From NCBI GenBank assembly GCA_944393235.1, contig CALXZJ010000002.1, forward strand, positions 1,739-65,738: a DNA stretch of 64,000 nucleotides, written 5' to 3'. The translations under genes were made by a program, and so were the position numbers. How positions within the stretch are numbered: position 1 is the stretch's first letter; each line of letters begins with the position of its first letter. Shown here piece after piece: positions 25,367 through 50,586 of the stretch. This stretch comes from an uncultured Alphaproteobacteria bacterium (GTDB lineage Bacteria > Pseudomonadota > Alphaproteobacteria > RF32 > CAG-239). The notes under the pieces were generated by a model. The model was not told the origin of the DNA. It saw only the letters and a program-made list of their open reading frames with translations, and made no database searches.

Positions 25367-25717
25367 ATGAAGTTTCTTAAAAATAATGCCTTTACCCTGC
25401 TTGCCTTTGCTCTGGTATTTGCGATGACGATGATCGGCGATGCTAATGCAGAATCTGTTATGGAAACGGCTAAGACTAAAGCAGTAAGCGTTTTTCAAGC
25501 TGTTAAAACAATCATTTTCATTGTTGGTGGTTTTGGTTTGATCGCGTTAGCGTTCCAGGCAATTTTCGGTAAAGTGAAGTGGCCGTGGTTTGCCGGTCTG
25601 GCTTTCGGTCTGGCAGTTTTAGCGGCAGCCGGTGCAATTGTTAACTACGCAACAGGGGATTCCAATGTAAATGACAGTACTCTGGGTGATACTTTCAGTA
25701 GTTCTACATCGGATTAA
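25367..25717 (+). CDS. virB2: T4SS pilin, VirB2/TrbC family (paralog 1)
   Basis: 116 aa with an AGGAG RBS and signal peptide (...MIGDANA/E). Two TM helices are separated by a short basic loop (FGKVKWPWF). It is first in a B2-B3-B4 gene order. Confidence 0.75.
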   Translation: MKFLKNNAFTLLAFALVFAMTMIGDANAESVMETAKTKAVSVFQAVKTIIFIVGGFGLIALAFQAIFGKVKWPWFAGLAFGLAVLAAAGAIVNYATGDSNVNDSTLGDTFSSSTSD

Positions 25718-25729
25718 TCAAAAAATATG

Positions 25730-25754
25730 GGGAAAAGCTTTAATGGCTTTTCCC
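25730..25754 (+). terminator. Stem-loop directly after virB2 paralog 1 (possible attenuating terminator)
   Basis: The stem is GGGAAAAGC/GCTTTTCCC (9 bp) with a 7-nt loop. There is no clean T-run. Confidence 0.4.
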
Positions 25755-25788
25755 TGTTATAAAATACAGTAAAGAAGATTTTATTATC

Positions 25789-48300: not shown

Positions 48301-49598
48301 ATTTAATTGGCAAAAAAATGCCGGATGGTTTGATTATAGATGATGATGGAAGTTTAATCGGTATTGAAGAAGCTAAGAACATTACTGCCGGGCAAATGTT
48401 TGTTCCGGCTGGCACATTTGGCTCCGGAGGTGCTTATGGTACAGGAGTCGCCCCGACCAATTTAGGACCCGGTGGCGGGTTTGGCCCTGGGGAGCGATAT
48501 GATCCGGTTCGTTCACAGGCTCTGGCGGCAGCACAGGCAGCAAGGCGAGGTGAAATTACCGTCGGAAGATTAACAACGCAGGTTAAGAGAGAAGATTTTG
48601 ACGGCAAACAAAACTATTGGGAAGGTGTACCGCGTCAAATTTCTAGTTGGCCTGTGGATATGAGCGAAATGATTTTAGAGGACAAACCGATACCGGCGGT
48701 TTTGGCAAGAACAATTATGTCCGGAGGCGGCACTGTCCCGGTTACGGCAATTGTAGAAAGAAACGTTTATGCTGAAGATGGCAGAAATATTGTTATACCT
48801 GCCGGTAGTCGTGTGATGGGAGAGTCGTCAGGCACAAGCGGCAGTAACAATAAAAGTGCCGTCAGAGTTGCTATTACCTGGAATCGTTTAATTCGTCCGG
48901 ATGGTTCTGCTTTTGAGTTTTCAACAGCTCAAACCGGAGATGCCCAAGGACGTGCCGGTGCATTAGGATATGTGGATGAGCAGTTGCTCAAAAAATATAC
49001 ATTGCCGATGGTTACCAATCTTTTGAGCAGTGCTGTAGCTTATGTTGCTGCCAGCGGCGAAACAAGTACTGATAGTAACGGTAATACGGTCGAAAACGCC
49101 CGTGCTGAGGCAGCCGAGGACGCTCGTCAAAACTTCTTGGATAATATGGATCAAATGTTTCAGGAGATTCTGTCAGATAAAACCAAAATTGAAGCTGTGG
49201 CATATGTTCCGGCAGGTACGCGCTTGATAATTTATCCGAAAGAAGATTTATGGCTCAGAACGCCGGAACGCAGTCAAGAAGAAGCTTTACAGGATCTTCA
49301 AAAACCGACGGTACTTATTGATGACCGTGATCCTACTGGTTCAAGAAACAACAGAAACACGAGCGGAGGCGGTGGCGGCGGAAGCAATTCTACGGGAACC
49401 TCACCTGGTACAAGCGGCGTGGTTTATATGGATGATAGCAATGAAAACATCCAAGCTTCTACGCCTTTGATAAGTGATTCTTCAAACAAAAAGAAAACGC
49501 CGCCGTCGCGGTCAATTCCTCCGGTAACTTCCACCGGGGCAACGCCGCCGCCGCCATCTTCTACCGGCAGCAATAACACTTCGGCGCAATTGTTTTGA
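45381..49598 (+). CDS. virB10: Giant VirB10/TrbI-family protein (~1405 aa) with the same repeat family N-terminal to the VirB10 barrel domain
   Basis: GTG at 45381 with a GGAGG RBS 7 nt upstream. It has an N-terminal anchor/signal helix and ~880 aa of G.V.D..G..IG repeats. A Pro-rich segment follows (KPEPVKPADWATPPTNQ...PTPQPESP). The C-terminal TrbI/VirB10 core is IPAVLARTIMSGGG.VPVTAIVERNVYAEDGRNIVIPAGSRVMGE...ITWNRLIRPDGSAFEF...GDAQGRAGALGYVD. The tail is G-rich then P/S/T-rich. Confidence 0.85.
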   Translation: MFEKIKKTILWFNISFAAILLAIKPVYAQEITAIDFNGDLIGKVIPDGTVISFDNAIIGNVTADSFIVNAKGELIGGVIPQGIAVGNDNKLLGRVNNDGSVRLPSGKIVGKVLPNALVVDDSYNILGSVLYPGLVYDDAGKTIGRLTGDGAYISLEGQNIGFISPLGYAYRNTGNGFVLDGKLISSKMVVSPDGNFIGSLTPGGKVTDFNSKDIGFIHANGYVYNDNNQIVGKTVSNGYAFDNLGKYLGLIAYNGEVINNGQTVAKFRADNKIIDEKGNVIGFAVDIAATATDLQGKYLGRLMPGGKIAQAREVVGTVGARGYIWNNDGEIIGQIVKAGPVFDYHGNLAAQALRNGTIISTGGTVLGYAKSNQAYDNIGRLLGASMDSRLVFDNSNNFLGLSGIGSDFINNGAKLKISPFGYVYSADNVLVGHTIGLEALYAESGKTEGYAGINGNLEGIPQEHNYKLTQFGTIVDSQNAMVAASINPLFVVGENEEELGYLAENNLLINKKQEVVAKILPEYKVVSSSAKVNEQTMPIIGSVGTSPLAIGVNGTMLGYVDLKGIVQDYSGNKIGVMLDGNTVADNNNSIIGQTIDFKAIVNDKCEFLGVVGSKGDVRNNRDIILGKILTNDQVISEVGNVIGFGVKSGNMIDFEGKPLGTVNTLGQILNYAQEKLGCIRSDGRFYNADEHFIGSLAQPAPVMNFENIIIGRSDLNNQLINDKSKTIGYIRPDNTAVSLEGEILGTSFKYKVAFDDENSFLGRVAENGNVVSDKNDILGQVQYDGTVVADNKPIGFALYDFYIYDENNKTIGYITRDGLVVSFSGARLGKADKGFLVDKNYVLIGRGSRDYFVRDENNNVIGELSLNGEVINTEGKVIGNVSANGEVRDSEEKVLGRAWDLQYYNVNKPEPVKPADWATPPTNQGQIKVDAVPTPQPESPGEYGLKAIGIALTPDGNYLGDILANNDVIDKGGNLIGKKMPDGLIIDDDGSLIGIEEAKNITAGQMFVPAGTFGSGGAYGTGVAPTNLGPGGGFGPGERYDPVRSQALAAAQAARRGEITVGRLTTQVKREDFDGKQNYWEGVPRQISSWPVDMSEMILEDKPIPAVLARTIMSGGGTVPVTAIVERNVYAEDGRNIVIPAGSRVMGESSGTSGSNNKSAVRVAITWNRLIRPDGSAFEFSTAQTGDAQGRAGALGYVDEQLLKKYTLPMVTNLLSSAVAYVAASGETSTDSNGNTVENARAEAAEDARQNFLDNMDQMFQEILSDKTKIEAVAYVPAGTRLIIYPKEDLWLRTPERSQEEALQDLQKPTVLIDDRDPTGSRNNRNTSGGGGGGSNSTGTSPGTSGVVYMDDSNENIQASTPLISDSSNKKKTPPSRSIPPVTSTGATPPPPSSTGSNNTSAQLF

Positions 49599-49614
49599 TA
49601 AAGGATAAAGATAA

Positions 49615-50586
49615 ATGAGCACATTTACGGTTTTAGAATCAGTTTTACGACCGTTAGCCTATTGGTATAATCAGGAAAACATAGAAGAAGTGGCCATCAA
49701 CCGCTCTGAGCAAATATGGCTGCGTCTGCGCGGCAAAAGGGCGTATCCGTGGGTAATGTATAAAGATGAAAAATTAACCAAAGAATATTTAACCGATTTG
49801 CTTTATATTGTTGCAAACACCTACGAGTTGCCGTTTGATCCAATATCCGGTTCGCCGGTTGTTTATGCGACCATTCCTGGCGATCACCGTTTTTCAGCCA
49901 TAGCCGGACGTAATGTCATGTACGATGAAGGCGATTTAACCGGCGGCGTTGCTTTAACAATCCGTGTCCATAGTGATGATGTTGCATTTGGCTTAGGTGA
50001 TTATGGACTAGAACAAGGCAAAGGTCTGCACAAAATAAATCCTTTAAAACAAATTAAAGATCCTGAAGACCCCTATGAGCGCTTATTATTGAGCATCAAA
50101 CGCGGCGATCATATTTTAGTCAGCGGCGCGACTTCAACCGGTAAAACAACGTTTTTAAATAACCTGCTCAAAATTTTGGATATTCACAAACGCATTGTAA
50201 CAATTGAAGATACTCGAGAATTGATTGTTCCACATCCCAACCGTGTGCATTTAGTTTTATCTCGTACTGAACAAACCAATGAAATGGATTATGCCAAAAT
50301 CATTGACTTGGTTGTTCGTTTTACGCCTGATGCCATTATCGGTGGCGAAATTTCCACCAGCAACGCCGGTGCCTTATGGGAGCTGATGGGTTCAGGTCAT
50401 GATAACTGTCTGGCAACCATCCACGCGGAAAGTTCCGAGGCGGCATATCAAGCTTTTACCGATCGTATTTTACATACATATCCGTCAATTGACCGAGCCA
50501 AGACGATTGAAGAAATGCGCCATAAACTAAGAGTGGTGCAAATTAACCGCGATGGCAACCTGCGTGCCATTACAGAAGTCACATAG
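49615..50586 (+). CDS. virB11: VirB11-family T4SS ATPase
   Basis: 323 aa. Walker A is VSGATSTGKTTFLN, the Asp box TIEDTRELI, Walker B AIIGGEIS and the His box GHDNCLATIHAES. Confidence 0.9.
   Translation: MSTFTVLESVLRPLAYWYNQENIEEVAINRSEQIWLRLRGKRAYPWVMYKDEKLTKEYLTDLLYIVANTYELPFDPISGSPVVYATIPGDHRFSAIAGRNVMYDEGDLTGGVALTIRVHSDDVAFGLGDYGLEQGKGLHKINPLKQIKDPEDPYERLLLSIKRGDHILVSGATSTGKTTFLNNLLKILDIHKRIVTIEDTRELIVPHPNRVHLVLSRTEQTNEMDYAKIIDLVVRFTPDAIIGGEISTSNAGALWELMGSGHDNCLATIHAESSEAAYQAFTDRILHTYPSIDRAKTIEEMRHKLRVVQINRDGNLRAITEVT

What the first reader, a model, noticed from the sequence alone, without database searches (positions are those of the whole stretch)
25367..50586. VirB locus with rvh-like backbone but no VirB6, VirB1 or VirD4 in cis
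Seen: the gene order is B2-B2-B2(ext)-B3-B4-[four secreted helical proteins]-B8-lipoprotein-B8-B9-[1208-aa repeat protein]-B10-B11. None of the ORFs between virB4 and virB8 has more than one hydrophobic segment, so a VirB6/TrbL-type polytopic channel protein is missing from its canonical position. virB11 is followed by a terminator rather than virD4. Established: VirB6 and a T4CP are considered essential in VirB/D4 systems. As I recall the Rickettsiales rvh literature, rvh systems lack VirB5 and place expanded VirB6 paralogs after B4. Inference: the four secreted proteins may functionally replace or supplement B5/B6, or B6/D4 are encoded elsewhere.
Basis: partly seen in the sequence, partly recalled or inferred. 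Interest (0 to 1): 0.8.

Follow-up and report, generated by a model that had tools for sequence, protein, structure and literature searches.

The report
Gut-bacterial secretion machine lacking VirB6
Uncultured gut Alphaproteobacteria carry a conserved chromosomal type IV secretion system that has no channel protein VirB6 and no coupling ATPase VirD4 next to it, and its plasmid-borne relatives also lack VirB6, a part usually described as universal.

Summary
Window 25367-50586 encodes VirB2 x3, VirB3, VirB4, four Sec-signal helical proteins (X1-X4), VirB8, a VirB7-type lipoprotein, VirB8, VirB9-SPOR, two giant beta-flower proteins and VirB11. No polytopic VirB6-like ORF, T4CP or lytic transglycosylase occurs anywhere in the 64 kb.

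The same gene order is kept in 80 species-level gut MAGs. Core parts are conserved (VirB4 77-93%), while X1-X4 diverge fast (about 27-32%).

- The "1208-aa repeat protein" is the N-terminal half of a split VirB10.
- X1 and X2 are VirB5-like, so VirB5 is expanded rather than absent as in rvh.

The closest relatives are not shown to be rvh. They are a divergent lineage of alphaproteobacterial plasmid T4SSs with a relaxase and VirD4 (VirB4 33-39% identical). Six of these have two VirB5-like genes and no polytopic VirB6 in the VirB6 slot.

Best reading: a domesticated, T4CP-independent derivative of a natively VirB6-less lineage. It most likely builds a variable adhesive pilus or a two-step secretion device.

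Genome-wide absence of VirB6 and VirD4 could not be tested. Sister genomes carry isolated virB3-virB4 islets, so components encoded elsewhere remain possible.

The parts
25367..25717 (+). VirB2 pilin paralogue a
   Evidence: PF04956 E 1.1e-8, above the Pfam cut-off. Signal plus 2 TM segments.
26015..26368 (+). VirB2 pilin paralogue b
   Evidence: PF04956 E 1.2e-5. Same topology as paralogue a.
26380..27447 (+). VirB2 paralogue c with a 250-aa Ser/Gly/Asn/Asp-rich C-terminal extension. The whole protein is 124-2058 aa in relatives.
   Evidence: PF04956 E 3e-4 over residues 10-93. Length variation across loci.
27557..27847 (+). VirB3
   Evidence: 2 TM segments. BLAST E 4e-6 to the Microvirga VirB3, which itself hits PF05101. 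56-86% conserved in the clade.
27783..30269 (+). VirB4 ATPase. The true start is probably about 18 codons downstream, because relatives aa.
   Evidence: PF03135 E 4e-17 and TIGR00929 E 3e-112. TrwK in the PDB at E 1e-41. 77-93% identical in 80 species.
30322..32178 (+). X1: secreted VirB5-like protein with a WPTTD N-terminal motif, a disordered acidic/Pro-rich middle and a conserved Cys-containing C-terminal domain. It is duplicated 2-3 times in about 20 relatives.
   Evidence: The b5 HMM hits 25 members of the X1 cluster, best E 3e-8. hhalign to b5 gives 89%. Clustering. No Pfam family.
32123..32833 (+). X2: secreted all-helical 223-aa protein, probably VirB5-like.
   Evidence: hhalign to b5 gives 71% over the full length. 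Its C-terminus aligns with the X1 C-terminus at 80%. The AF2 model is unreliable, pLDDT 39.
32778..34079 (+). X3: secreted helical protein. Its relation to VirB5 is weak.
   Evidence: hhalign of the C-terminus to b5 gives 32-44%. No Pfam or PDB sequence match.
34090..38214 (+). X4: 1374-aa secreted protein with long helical hairpins and small Cys-rich and beta domains. It is the clade-specific occupant of the slot just before VirB8/VirB7.
   Evidence: AF2 pLDDT 76. No Foldseek match with E below 1e-3 in the PDB or BFVD. 300 clusters at 50% identity in 1.8 billion proteins. No Pfam family.
38214..38984 (+). VirB8 copy a, the extra and more divergent copy
   Evidence: PF04335 E 2e-16. Weaker match to the lineage VirB8 than copy b.
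39131..39319 (+). VirB7-type lipoprotein
   Evidence: Lipobox LILTAC. E 1e-9 to the lipoproteins at the VirB7 position of relatives, which share the motif GIGxxPNxLKxSPCAC; the window protein reads GIGKDVNELKLSPCAC.
39345..40094 (+). VirB8 copy b, the orthologue of the lineage VirB8
   Evidence: PF04335 E 9e-21. E 6e-33 to the Microvirga VirB8.
40115..41737 (+). VirB9 with a C-terminal SPOR-like peptidoglycan-binding domain
   Evidence: PF03524 E 3e-12. PF05036 E 7e-4, just under the Pfam cut-off.
41753..45379 (+). VirB10 N-terminal half: cytoplasmic tail, TM anchor, EPVF motif, Ig-like domain, then about 1000 aa of beta-flower repeats
   Evidence: An HMM of the first 230 aa of six lineage VirB10 proteins hits residues 82-194 at E 7e-8. 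PF21785 E 1e-77. Strong TM at 19-37.
45342..49598 (+). VirB10 C-terminal half: Sec-type signal, about 1000 aa of beta-flower repeats, then the TrbI domain
   Evidence: PF03743 E 2e-31 at residues 1111-1305 and PF21785 E 2e-53. Not hit by the VirB10 N-terminal HMM.
49615..50586 (+). VirB11 ATPase
   Evidence: TIGR02788 E 1e-42. 41-42% identical to VirB11 of the plasmid lineage.
50602..50621 (.). Hairpin between the convergent virB11 and engB, a likely bidirectional terminator
55648..55989 (-). Detached fourth VirB2 paralogue in a variable region
   Evidence: PF04956 E 2.7e-7. Present in L001 and absent from the downstream flank of L002-L004.

Best explanation
The locus is a vertically inherited chromosomal type IV secretion system of uncultured gut Alphaproteobacteria. 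It descends from a divergent alphaproteobacterial T4SS lineage.

The plasmid members of that lineage have the order relaxase ... B2-B3-B4-VirB5like-second VirB5like ('Y')-B7-B8-B9-B10-B11-VirD4. They have no polytopic VirB6 in the operon.

Inferred changes in the gut clade:
- The DNA-transfer module (relaxase and T4CP) was lost.
- VirB2 was multiplied to 3-4 copies, one of which carries a long variable tail.
- The VirB5-like genes expanded into the fast-evolving secreted proteins X1-X3 and the giant X4.
- VirB8 was duplicated.
- VirB10 was split into two proteins of about 1200-1400 aa filled with beta-flower repeats.

Inferred mechanism. VirB4 and VirB11 power assembly of a VirB2 pilus or pseudopilus through a VirB7/9/10 outer-membrane complex. 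X1-X4 enter the periplasm through Sec and form the stalk, the tip or the cargo. The machine therefore acts without a coupling protein, either as a sequence-variable adhesive organelle (Trw-like) or as a two-step exporter (Ptl-like). The stalk is built from VirB5-family proteins instead of VirB6.

What is shown: gene content, conservation, the homologies and the absence in cis. What is inferred: the function, and that the machine works without VirB6.
For: - Component assignments.
- No polytopic ORF or T4CP in the 64 kb window.
- Same order in 80 species-level genomes, with no polytopic ORF between B4 and B8.
- Purifying selection on the core against fast evolution of X1-X4. Median identities are B4 80%, lipoprotein 77% and B8b 66%, against X1-X4 27-32%.
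- Nearest plasmid relatives at 35-39% VirB4 identity, while classical VirB4 is about 25%.
- Six lineage systems carry MobA/MobL and VirD4, have two secreted VirB5-like genes, and have no PF04610 hit and no protein with 5 or more TM segments in the slot.
- b5 and Y hit PF07996 (E 7e-7 to 2e-3).
- X1 and X2 are related to b5.
- VirB10 is split.
- T4CP-less T4SSs and the Trw and Ptl models are established (PMC12857230).
Against: - The rest of the genome could not be searched. Sister genomes (VirB4 55-58% identical) carry virB2-B3-B4 or virB3-B4 as isolated islets, and a fourth virB2 is detached in the window. VirB6 or VirD4 encoded elsewhere is therefore plausible.
- Microvirga has a 228-aa protein with 3-4 TM segments in the slot. 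It could be a minimal VirB6.
- The links between the X proteins and VirB5 are profile-level only. No PDB VirB5 hit was obtained, and the X2 model failed.
- No expression or functional data exist.
Confidence: 0.5

Rival explanations
1. This is an ordinary effector-translocating VirB/VirD4 system whose virB6 and virD4 (and perhaps virB1) lie in other chromosomal islets, as in the Rickettsiales rvh archipelago. The locus only looks incomplete.
For: - Sister-lineage genomes have virB3-virB4, or B2-B3-B4, as isolated islets among housekeeping genes.
- A fourth virB2 is detached at 55.6 kb.
- The B8-B7-B8-B9-B10-B11 order mirrors rvh islet C.
Against: - Six related plasmid or metagenomic operons keep VirD4 in cis and still have no polytopic VirB6 within 10-20 kb on either side. 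Absence of VirB6 is therefore a lineage trait, not a scattering effect.
- 80 species keep all other parts together.
- Nothing suggests VirB6 remnants at the locus.
Confidence: 0.27
2. One of the non-membrane proteins is a true but unrecognisable VirB6 homologue that lost most of its hydrophobic helices. The candidates are X4 here and 'Y' in the plasmid relatives. VirB6 would then be present in disguise.
For: - X4 and Y occupy the slot next to the VirB7/VirB8 genes.
- In the R388 structure the bulk of VirB6 is periplasmic and only two helices anchor it (review PMC12857230).
- X4 and Y share a P-P-x-C/P...D motif after the signal peptide (read from the sequences), and hhalign gives 32%.
Against: - Y proteins hit the VirB5 family PF07996, not PF04610, and relate to b5 at 96%.
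- The X4 model (pLDDT 76) has no Foldseek match to any PDB chain at E below 1e-3. I believe the PDB library holds TrwI (VirB6), but I did not check it.
- X4 has a single N-terminal hydrophobic segment.
Confidence: 0.13
3. The locus is a decaying remnant of an integrated conjugative element and is not a working machine.
For: The relaxase and T4CP are lost. VirB10 is split in two. One strain has the VirB10 N-terminal gene broken into 810 and 380 aa (L005).
Against: - All 16 ORFs are intact, including ORFs of 1208-1418 aa.
- VirB4 is 77-93% identical, and the lipoprotein and VirB3 are conserved across 80 species in human, ruminant, rabbit and chicken guts.
- The locus sits in a fixed chromosomal position beside engB-yidC-rnpA.
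Confidence: 0.04

Closest known systems
Unnamed lineage of alphaproteobacterial MobA/MobL (MOBQ) plasmid T4SSs: Microvirga sp. VF16 pMVF16-3, Erythrobacter aureus YH-07 plasmid, Sphingosinicella sp. BN140058 p1, and three metagenomic contigs
   Same: - Closest sequences found: VirB4 33-39%, VirB11 41-42% and VirB9 about 35% identical.
- The lipoprotein is homologous, with the motif PNxLKxSPCAC (NELKLSPCAC in the window).
- VirB9 is long.
- The VirB10 N-terminal Ig-like domain is shared.
- Secreted VirB5-like proteins follow VirB4.
- There is no polytopic VirB6 in the operon.

   Different: - The plasmid systems have a relaxase, a DnaB-like helicase and VirD4 in cis.
- They have a single VirB2 and a single VirB8.
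- Their VirB10 is unsplit, at 530-630 aa, and no beta-flower repeat hit was reported where tested (Microvirga VirB10).
- They have only two VirB5-like genes, of about 260 and about 400-590 aa.
Bartonella Trw T4SS
   Same: - No coupling protein.
- Multiple sequence-variable VirB2 and VirB5-type genes.
- It has been proposed to have kept the pilus-building function as a host-adhesion organelle (PMC12857230).
   Different: - From my own knowledge, Trw keeps and co-amplifies VirB6 (TrwI) and is a close relative of R388.
- Here VirB4 matches R388 TrwK only distantly (146 bits), and VirB6 is absent in cis.
Rickettsiales rvh T4SS
   Same: - It is chromosomal and vertically inherited.
- It has the order VirB8-VirB7-VirB8-VirB9-VirB10-VirB11, with one divergent VirB8 copy.
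- Several large genes follow VirB4.
- A roughly 212-aa GTP-binding gene lies beside the system.
   Different: - rvh has five polytopic VirB6 paralogues, VirD4 after VirB11, duplicated VirB4 and VirB9, and no VirB5.
- rvh is split into five islets.
- None of these holds here, and VirB5-like genes are expanded.
Bordetella Ptl and Brucella VirB, which are T4CP-less and secrete in two steps
   Same: There is no VirD4. Sec-signal proteins are encoded inside or beside the operon and could be periplasmic cargo.
   Different: From my own knowledge, both keep VirB6 (PtlD, VirB6). Ptl lacks VirB5. No toxin-like domains were detected in X1-X4.

Membership tests
VirB/VirD4-type (minimised, MPF-T-like) T4SS | VirB4 ATPase | tested here: met
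   PF03135 E 4e-17 and TIGR00929 E 3e-112, although below NCBIfam's curated cut-off.
VirB/VirD4-type (minimised, MPF-T-like) T4SS | Outer-membrane core VirB7/VirB9/VirB10, plus VirB2, VirB3, VirB8 and VirB11 | tested here: met
   VirB10 is split over two ORFs.
VirB/VirD4-type (minimised, MPF-T-like) T4SS | Polytopic VirB6/TrbL protein | tested here: not met
   Not found in the 64 kb window. Not found between B4 and B8 in 80 relatives. The rest of the genome could not be tested.
VirB/VirD4-type (minimised, MPF-T-like) T4SS | VirD4 coupling protein | tested here: not met
   No T4CP family hit in the window. virB11 is followed by a hairpin and the convergent engB, and likewise in L001-L006. Genome-wide presence could not be tested.
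VirB/VirD4-type (minimised, MPF-T-like) T4SS | VirB5 tip protein | tested here: inconclusive
   X1 and X2 relate to lineage b5 proteins that hit PF07996. The window proteins have no direct Pfam or PDB VirB5 hit.
VirB/VirD4-type (minimised, MPF-T-like) T4SS | VirB1 lytic transglycosylase | tested here: not met
   No SLT hit in the window.
rvh (Rickettsiales vir homologue) | Four to five hydrophobic VirB6 paralogues after VirB4 | tested here: not met
   X1-X4 have one signal-like segment each.
rvh (Rickettsiales vir homologue) | Lack of VirB5 | tested here: inconclusive
   VirB5-like relations are seen for X1 and X2. If they hold, this feature is not met.
rvh (Rickettsiales vir homologue) | Duplicated VirB4, VirB8 and VirB9 | tested here: inconclusive
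   VirB8 is duplicated. There is no second VirB4 or VirB9 in the window. VirB3-VirB4 islets at 55-58% identity exist in sister or unknown genomes.
rvh (Rickettsiales vir homologue) | Islet C order ...B8-B7-B8-B9-B10-B11-D4 and an archipelago layout | tested here: not met
   The order matches only up to B11. There is no D4 and the genes form a single locus.
rvh (Rickettsiales vir homologue) | Sequence affinity to rickettsial Vir proteins | not testable with these tools
   No rickettsial sequences were at hand. The nearest sequences found are plasmid systems.
Trw-like T4CP-less adhesive-pilus T4SS | No T4CP, with multi-copy variable VirB2 and VirB5 | tested here: met
   3-4 VirB2 genes and X1-X3, with X1 duplicated in about 20 species. 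Identity is low across the clade. The VirB5 assignment is tentative.
Trw-like T4CP-less adhesive-pilus T4SS | VirB6 (TrwI) retained, and close kinship to R388 Trw | tested here: not met
   No VirB6 in cis. The match to TrwK is only distant.
MOBQ-plasmid alphaproteobacterial T4SS lineage (unnamed) | Order B2-B3-B4-b5-Y-B7-B8-B9-B10-B11 with lineage-specific B7 and B10 N-terminal domains | tested here: met
   The window has extra copies and insertions.
MOBQ-plasmid alphaproteobacterial T4SS lineage (unnamed) | MobA/MobL relaxase and VirD4 in cis (conjugative module) | tested here: not met
   None in the window or within the 10 kb flanks fetched for the 80 relatives.

The most novel reading that the evidence does not exclude
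A whole lineage of diderm T4SSs works without any VirB6. It includes conjugative-looking plasmid systems with a relaxase and T4CP, and this domesticated gut-symbiont system. The central stalk and pilus-assembly platform would be built from two or more secreted VirB5-family proteins. This would contradict the current view that VirB6 is conserved in all T4SSs. In the gut clade, the machine would have become a coupling-protein-free, rapidly diversifying host- or partner-contact organelle with a split, giant VirB10.
Probability: 0.4. Interest if true: 0.8.

Novelty: new variant of a known kind. Interest (0 to 1): 0.62.

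Why it matters
A recent review states that VirB6 is 'highly conserved among all T4SSs' (PMC12857230). The R388 structure makes VirB6 the platform on which VirB5 and the pilus are assembled.

A natural lineage with intact, strongly conserved VirB2/3/4/7/8/9/10/11 but no VirB6 would give a direct test of what VirB6 is needed for. Some members of this lineage still carry a relaxase and a T4CP. 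It would also show whether VirB5-family proteins can take over the VirB6 role.

Separately, this is a conserved contact or secretion organelle, paired with a type IVb pilus. It occurs in a widespread but uncultured group of gut Alphaproteobacteria found in human (the MAG names suggest Hadza and other cohorts), ruminant, rabbit and chicken guts. Nothing about the lifestyle of these bacteria is established in the papers searched here. The fast-evolving X1-X4 and the tailed VirB2 are obvious candidates for host- or partner-specific recognition.

Tried and rejected
- An exact-sequence look-up of VirB4 failed, because the ORF-list start codon is probably wrong.
- R388 could not be fetched as a reference.
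- AF2 of X2 with a 12-sequence alignment gave pLDDT 39, so it was not used for fold search.
- PDB profile searches with the X1, X2 and X3 family alignments, and with the lineage b5 protein, gave only coiled-coil noise or nothing.
- Pfam on 31 X1 and 31 X3 family members gave coiled-coil noise. Three X1 members hit DUF4141 at about 1e-4, which was not pursued.
- Foldseek of the X4 model against the PDB and BFVD gave no match below E 1e-3. The weak AhlB/SmhB and Tc-toxin hits were judged to be generic long-helix similarity.
- hhalign of X4 against Y was negative with 3 sequences and weak with 6 sequences (32%).
- Polytopic ORFs antisense to X3, orf606 and the Erythrobacter and L093 genes were rejected. 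They lie opposite annotated genes, and the two checked (L088, L093) have the wrong codon-position GC pattern.
- The first representative-library job failed because the profile exceeded 1200 positions.
- Literature searches for RF32 or CAG-495 with T4SS, and for natural VirB6-less systems, found nothing relevant.
- A genome-wide search for VirB6 and VirD4 in these MAGs was considered, but the tools could not do it.

Full report
**1. What is in the window**

The window is a chromosomal segment. It carries atpB/F, dsbA-like, dciA, xerC/D-like, aroK, rph, rdgB, addB and addA, then a minus-strand type IVb pilus cluster, then the VirB locus. After that come the convergent engB, yidC, rnpA, a detached virB2, ybgC-like, ruvB, ruvA and an OprB porin.

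The pilus cluster spans 13137-24651. It has TcpQ, a secretin, PilO, a T2SSE ATPase, T2SSF and a PilS/bundlin-type pilin.

The finding's coordinates run exactly from the ATG of the first virB2 to the stop of virB11.

**2. Check of the observation**

Pfam and NCBIfam confirm the following:
- three VirB2 paralogues, the third with a 250-aa low-complexity tail
- VirB4
- two VirB8
- VirB9 with a C-terminal SPOR-like domain
- a TrbI/VirB10 domain at the C-terminus of a 1418-aa ORF
- VirB11

All scores are far below NCBIfam's curated cut-offs, so the system is divergent.

VirB3 and the 62-aa lipoprotein have no family hit. Their assignment rests on topology, a lipobox (LILTAC) and significant BLAST matches to the equivalent genes of related plasmid operons.

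Kyte-Doolittle scans show a single N-terminal, signal-like hydrophobic segment in each of X1 (618 aa), X2 (236 aa), X3 (433 aa) and X4 (1374 aa), even at a lax threshold.

A six-frame scan of all 64 kb finds no ORF with four or more hydrophobic segments other than AtpB, the PilC-like protein, YidC and ORFs antisense to real genes. None of the 46 ORFs scanned against Pfam hits TrbL/VirB6, a T4CP family or a lytic transglycosylase.

A hairpin at 50602-50621 separates virB11 from the convergent engB.

**3. Who carries it, and is the architecture stable?**

VirB11 occurs identically on 43 blocks of metagenome assemblies.

A scan of species-representative genomes with VirB4 returned 261 relatives. 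The best 80 are 77-93% identical. All are uncultured gut Alphaproteobacteria MAGs: CAG:495, 'Candidatus Scatocola', and MAGs from human (some labelled Hadza or BRZ), rumen, roe deer, goat, rabbit ('Lapin'), chicken and, by its MGBC label, probably mouse. NCBI files Scatocola under Rhodospirillaceae incertae sedis. I recall GTDB calling this group order RF32, but I did not verify that.

Across these loci the order is T4bP(-) | B2 x2-4, B3, B4, X1 (x1-3), X2, X3, X4, B8a, lipoprotein, B8b, B9. It is conserved, and no plus-strand polytopic ORF lies between B4 and B8a in any of them.

Median identity to the window proteins:

| Protein | Median identity |
|---|---|
| B4 | 80% |
| lipoprotein | 77% |
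| B8b | 66% |
| B3 | 62% |
| B8a | 56% |
| X1-X4 | 27-32% |
| tailed VirB2c | 32% |

The VirB2c paralogue as a whole ranges from 124 to 2058 aa. The machine core is thus under strong constraint, while the secreted and exposed parts diversify quickly. That argues against a decaying remnant.

**4. Nearest relatives outside the clade**

tblastn of VirB4 against 72,556 plasmids gave these identities:

| Plasmid host | VirB4 identity |
|---|---|
| Microvirga pMVF16-3 | 39% |
| Sphingosinicella p1 | 35.5% |
| Erythrobacter aureus plasmid | 35% |
| 'Ca. Paracaedimonas' plasmids | about 31% |
| classical VirB4/AvhB4 | about 25% |

The first three, plus three metagenomic contigs found through a VirB4 homologue search, share one architecture:

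MobA/MobL relaxase, DnaB-like helicase, B2, B3, B4, 'b5' (a 251-275-aa secreted protein), 'Y' (a 393-590-aa secreted protein), a 54-76-aa lipoprotein, B8, B9, B10, B11, VirD4.

- The lipoprotein motif is GIGxxPNxLKxSPCAC. The window protein carries a close variant, GIGKDVNELKLSPCAC.
- b5 hits the VirB5 family PF07996 (E 7e-7 and 1e-4).
- Two Y proteins also hit PF07996 (E 2e-3), and Y relates to b5 by hhalign at 96%.
- None of these proteins hits PF04610.
- Hydropathy and six-frame scans of 10-20 kb on either side find no credible polytopic protein. Two antisense ORFs were rejected on their codon-position GC pattern.
- The only exception is a 228-aa protein with 3-4 TM segments in Microvirga.
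- The Paracaedimonas system, one step further out, has a canonical 352-aa, 6-TM VirB6.

The empty VirB6 slot is therefore a trait of a lineage that otherwise looks fully conjugative. It is not a peculiarity of the window.

**5. What X1-X4 and the '1208-aa repeat protein' are**

An HMM of six b5 proteins hits 25 members of the X1 cluster (best E 3e-8 in a 363-sequence set). hhalign results:

| Comparison | hhalign probability | Region |
|---|---|---|
| X1 vs b5 | 89% | N-terminal region, including the P-x-x-D motif after the signal peptide |
| X2 vs b5 | 71% | full length |
| X1 C-terminus vs X2 C-terminus | 80% | C-terminal regions |
| X3 vs b5 | 32-44% | C-terminal region |
| X4 vs Y | 32% | N-terminal region |

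I read X1 and X2 as VirB5-family paralogues. X3 is a possible one. X4 is of unresolved origin.

The X2 model was useless (pLDDT 39).

The model of X4 residues 181-1374 is decent (pLDDT 76, pTM 0.65). It shows very long helical hairpins plus small Cys-rich and beta domains. It has no Foldseek match below E 1e-3 in the PDB or BFVD, so no VirB6 or VirB5 fold was detected.

An exhaustive profile search found 300 clusters at 50% identity of X4-like proteins. The top 150 listed are mostly 1200-1800 aa, with some shorter partial sequences, and six diverse members have no Pfam domain.

An HMM of the first 230 aa of six lineage VirB10 proteins hits residues 82-194 of the 1208-aa protein (E 7e-8) but not the 1418-aa 'VirB10' ORF.

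- The 1208-aa protein has the cytoplasmic tail, the strong TM anchor and the EPVF motif of VirB10.
- The 1418-aa ORF starts with a Sec-type signal and ends with the TrbI domain.
- Both are filled with about 1000 aa of beta-flower repeats (PF21785).
- VirB10 is therefore split into two giant proteins.

**6. Mechanism**

Shown:
- a complete energising and envelope-spanning core
- multiplied pilins
- multiplied Sec-dependent VirB5-like proteins
- no T4CP, relaxase or VirB6 in cis

Inferred:
- The machine works without a coupling protein, as the Ptl, Brucella VirB, ComB and Bartonella Trw systems do (PMC12857230).
- The combination of several variable VirB2 and VirB5-type genes most resembles Trw, which is proposed to make variable adhesive pili.
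- A Ptl-like two-step export of X proteins is the alternative.
- The conserved adjacency to a Tcp/Bfp-type pilus fits a contact or adhesion island.
- How a stalk is built without VirB6 is unknown. The lineage data suggest VirB5-family proteins (b5 and Y, or X1-X4) do it.

**7. rvh?**

Gillespie et al. (PMC2653234) define rvh by:
- five hydrophobic VirB6 paralogues after VirB4
- duplicated VirB4, VirB8 and VirB9
- no VirB5
- VirD4 after VirB11
- five islets

Only the VirB8 duplication and the B8-B7-B8-B9-B10-B11 order are shared. The extra copy here is B8a, the more divergent one, inserted before the lipoprotein.

Direct comparison with rickettsial proteins was not possible. PDB sequence searches with both VirB8 copies returned VirB8 and TrwG chains and no chain labelled as rickettsial. 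I recall the best-scoring entries being from Bartonella, Brucella and Agrobacterium.

**8. Main caveat**

VirB4 proteins 55-58% identical to the window's occur in isolated islets among housekeeping genes. One islet is T4bP | B2-B3-B4 followed by unrelated genes. The others are gatCAB | B3-B4.

These are either sister genomes with a scattered system or second VirB4 paralogues. Either way, scattering happens in this group. A VirB6 or VirD4 encoded elsewhere cannot be excluded without whole genomes.

**9. Verdict**

This is a new variant of a known kind of system. No paper in the searchable library describes it, or any natural T4SS without VirB6.

Noticed in passing
window 41753-49598: VirB10 is split into two giant genes. 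The 1208-aa ORF carries the VirB10 N-terminal tail, TM, EPVF motif and Ig-like domain. The 1418-aa ORF carries a Sec signal and the TrbI domain. Each has about 1000 aa of beta-flower (PF21785/PF21784/DUF3659) repeats. That is an enormous periplasmic or extracellular extension for a T4SS core protein.
   Followed up: partly
window 26380-27447; L007-L086: The third VirB2 paralogue carries a low-complexity C-terminal tail. The whole protein varies from 124 to 2058 aa between species. If it is incorporated into a pilus, the tail would decorate the pilus surface.
   Followed up: partly
window 13137-24651 (minus strand): A type IVb (Tcp/Bfp-like) pilus cluster is divergently adjacent to the VirB locus. 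It has TcpQ, a secretin, PilO, a T2SSE ATPase, T2SSF, a PilS/bundlin-type pilin and an extra ATPase at 13137-14096. The adjacency is kept in most of the 80 relatives, and even in a sister genome where only B2-B3-B4 remain (L094/L095).
   Followed up: partly
window 40115-41737: VirB9 has a 200-aa Gly-rich linker and a C-terminal SPOR-like domain (PF05036, E 7e-4). This could anchor the outer-membrane complex to peptidoglycan in a system without VirB1. The Erythrobacter VirB9 shows a weak match to the same C-terminal region.
   Followed up: no
window 55648-55989 (minus strand): A detached fourth VirB2 gene lies in a strain-variable region between rpmH/rnpA and ybgC-ruvB. It is present in L001 and absent from the downstream flank of L002-L004.
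   Followed up: no
L087, L088, L090-L093: A lineage of relaxase- and VirD4-bearing alphaproteobacterial T4SS operons has two secreted VirB5-family genes and no polytopic VirB6. MOB-suite typed the three plasmids as non-mobilizable or merely mobilizable, so its markers apparently did not detect a mating-pair-formation system.
   Followed up: partly
L094-L098: VirB3-VirB4 pairs (VirB4 55-58% identical to the window's; in L094/L095 also preceded by a virB2) sit alone among housekeeping genes (gatCAB, mutS, secE-nusG). This is an rvh-like 'islet' arrangement, or a second VirB4 paralogue, in related gut bacteria.
   Followed up: partly
window 50632-51273 (minus strand): engB (213 aa, GTP-binding) abuts virB11. 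Gillespie 2009 lists a 'GTP-binding CHP, 212-213 aa' inside the predicted operon of rvh islet A in Rickettsia. This may be coincidence or a trace of shared chromosomal context.
   Followed up: no
L093 20909-22469: The VirD4 of one metagenomic lineage member is 1090 aa and carries Hint/LAGLIDADG homing-endonuclease domains. It is probably an intein-containing T4CP.
   Followed up: no
L087 23216-23902: Only the Microvirga operon has a 228-aa protein with 3-4 TM segments between the two VirB5-like genes. It has no Pfam hit. It could be a minimal VirB6 analogue or an entry-exclusion protein.
   Followed up: no
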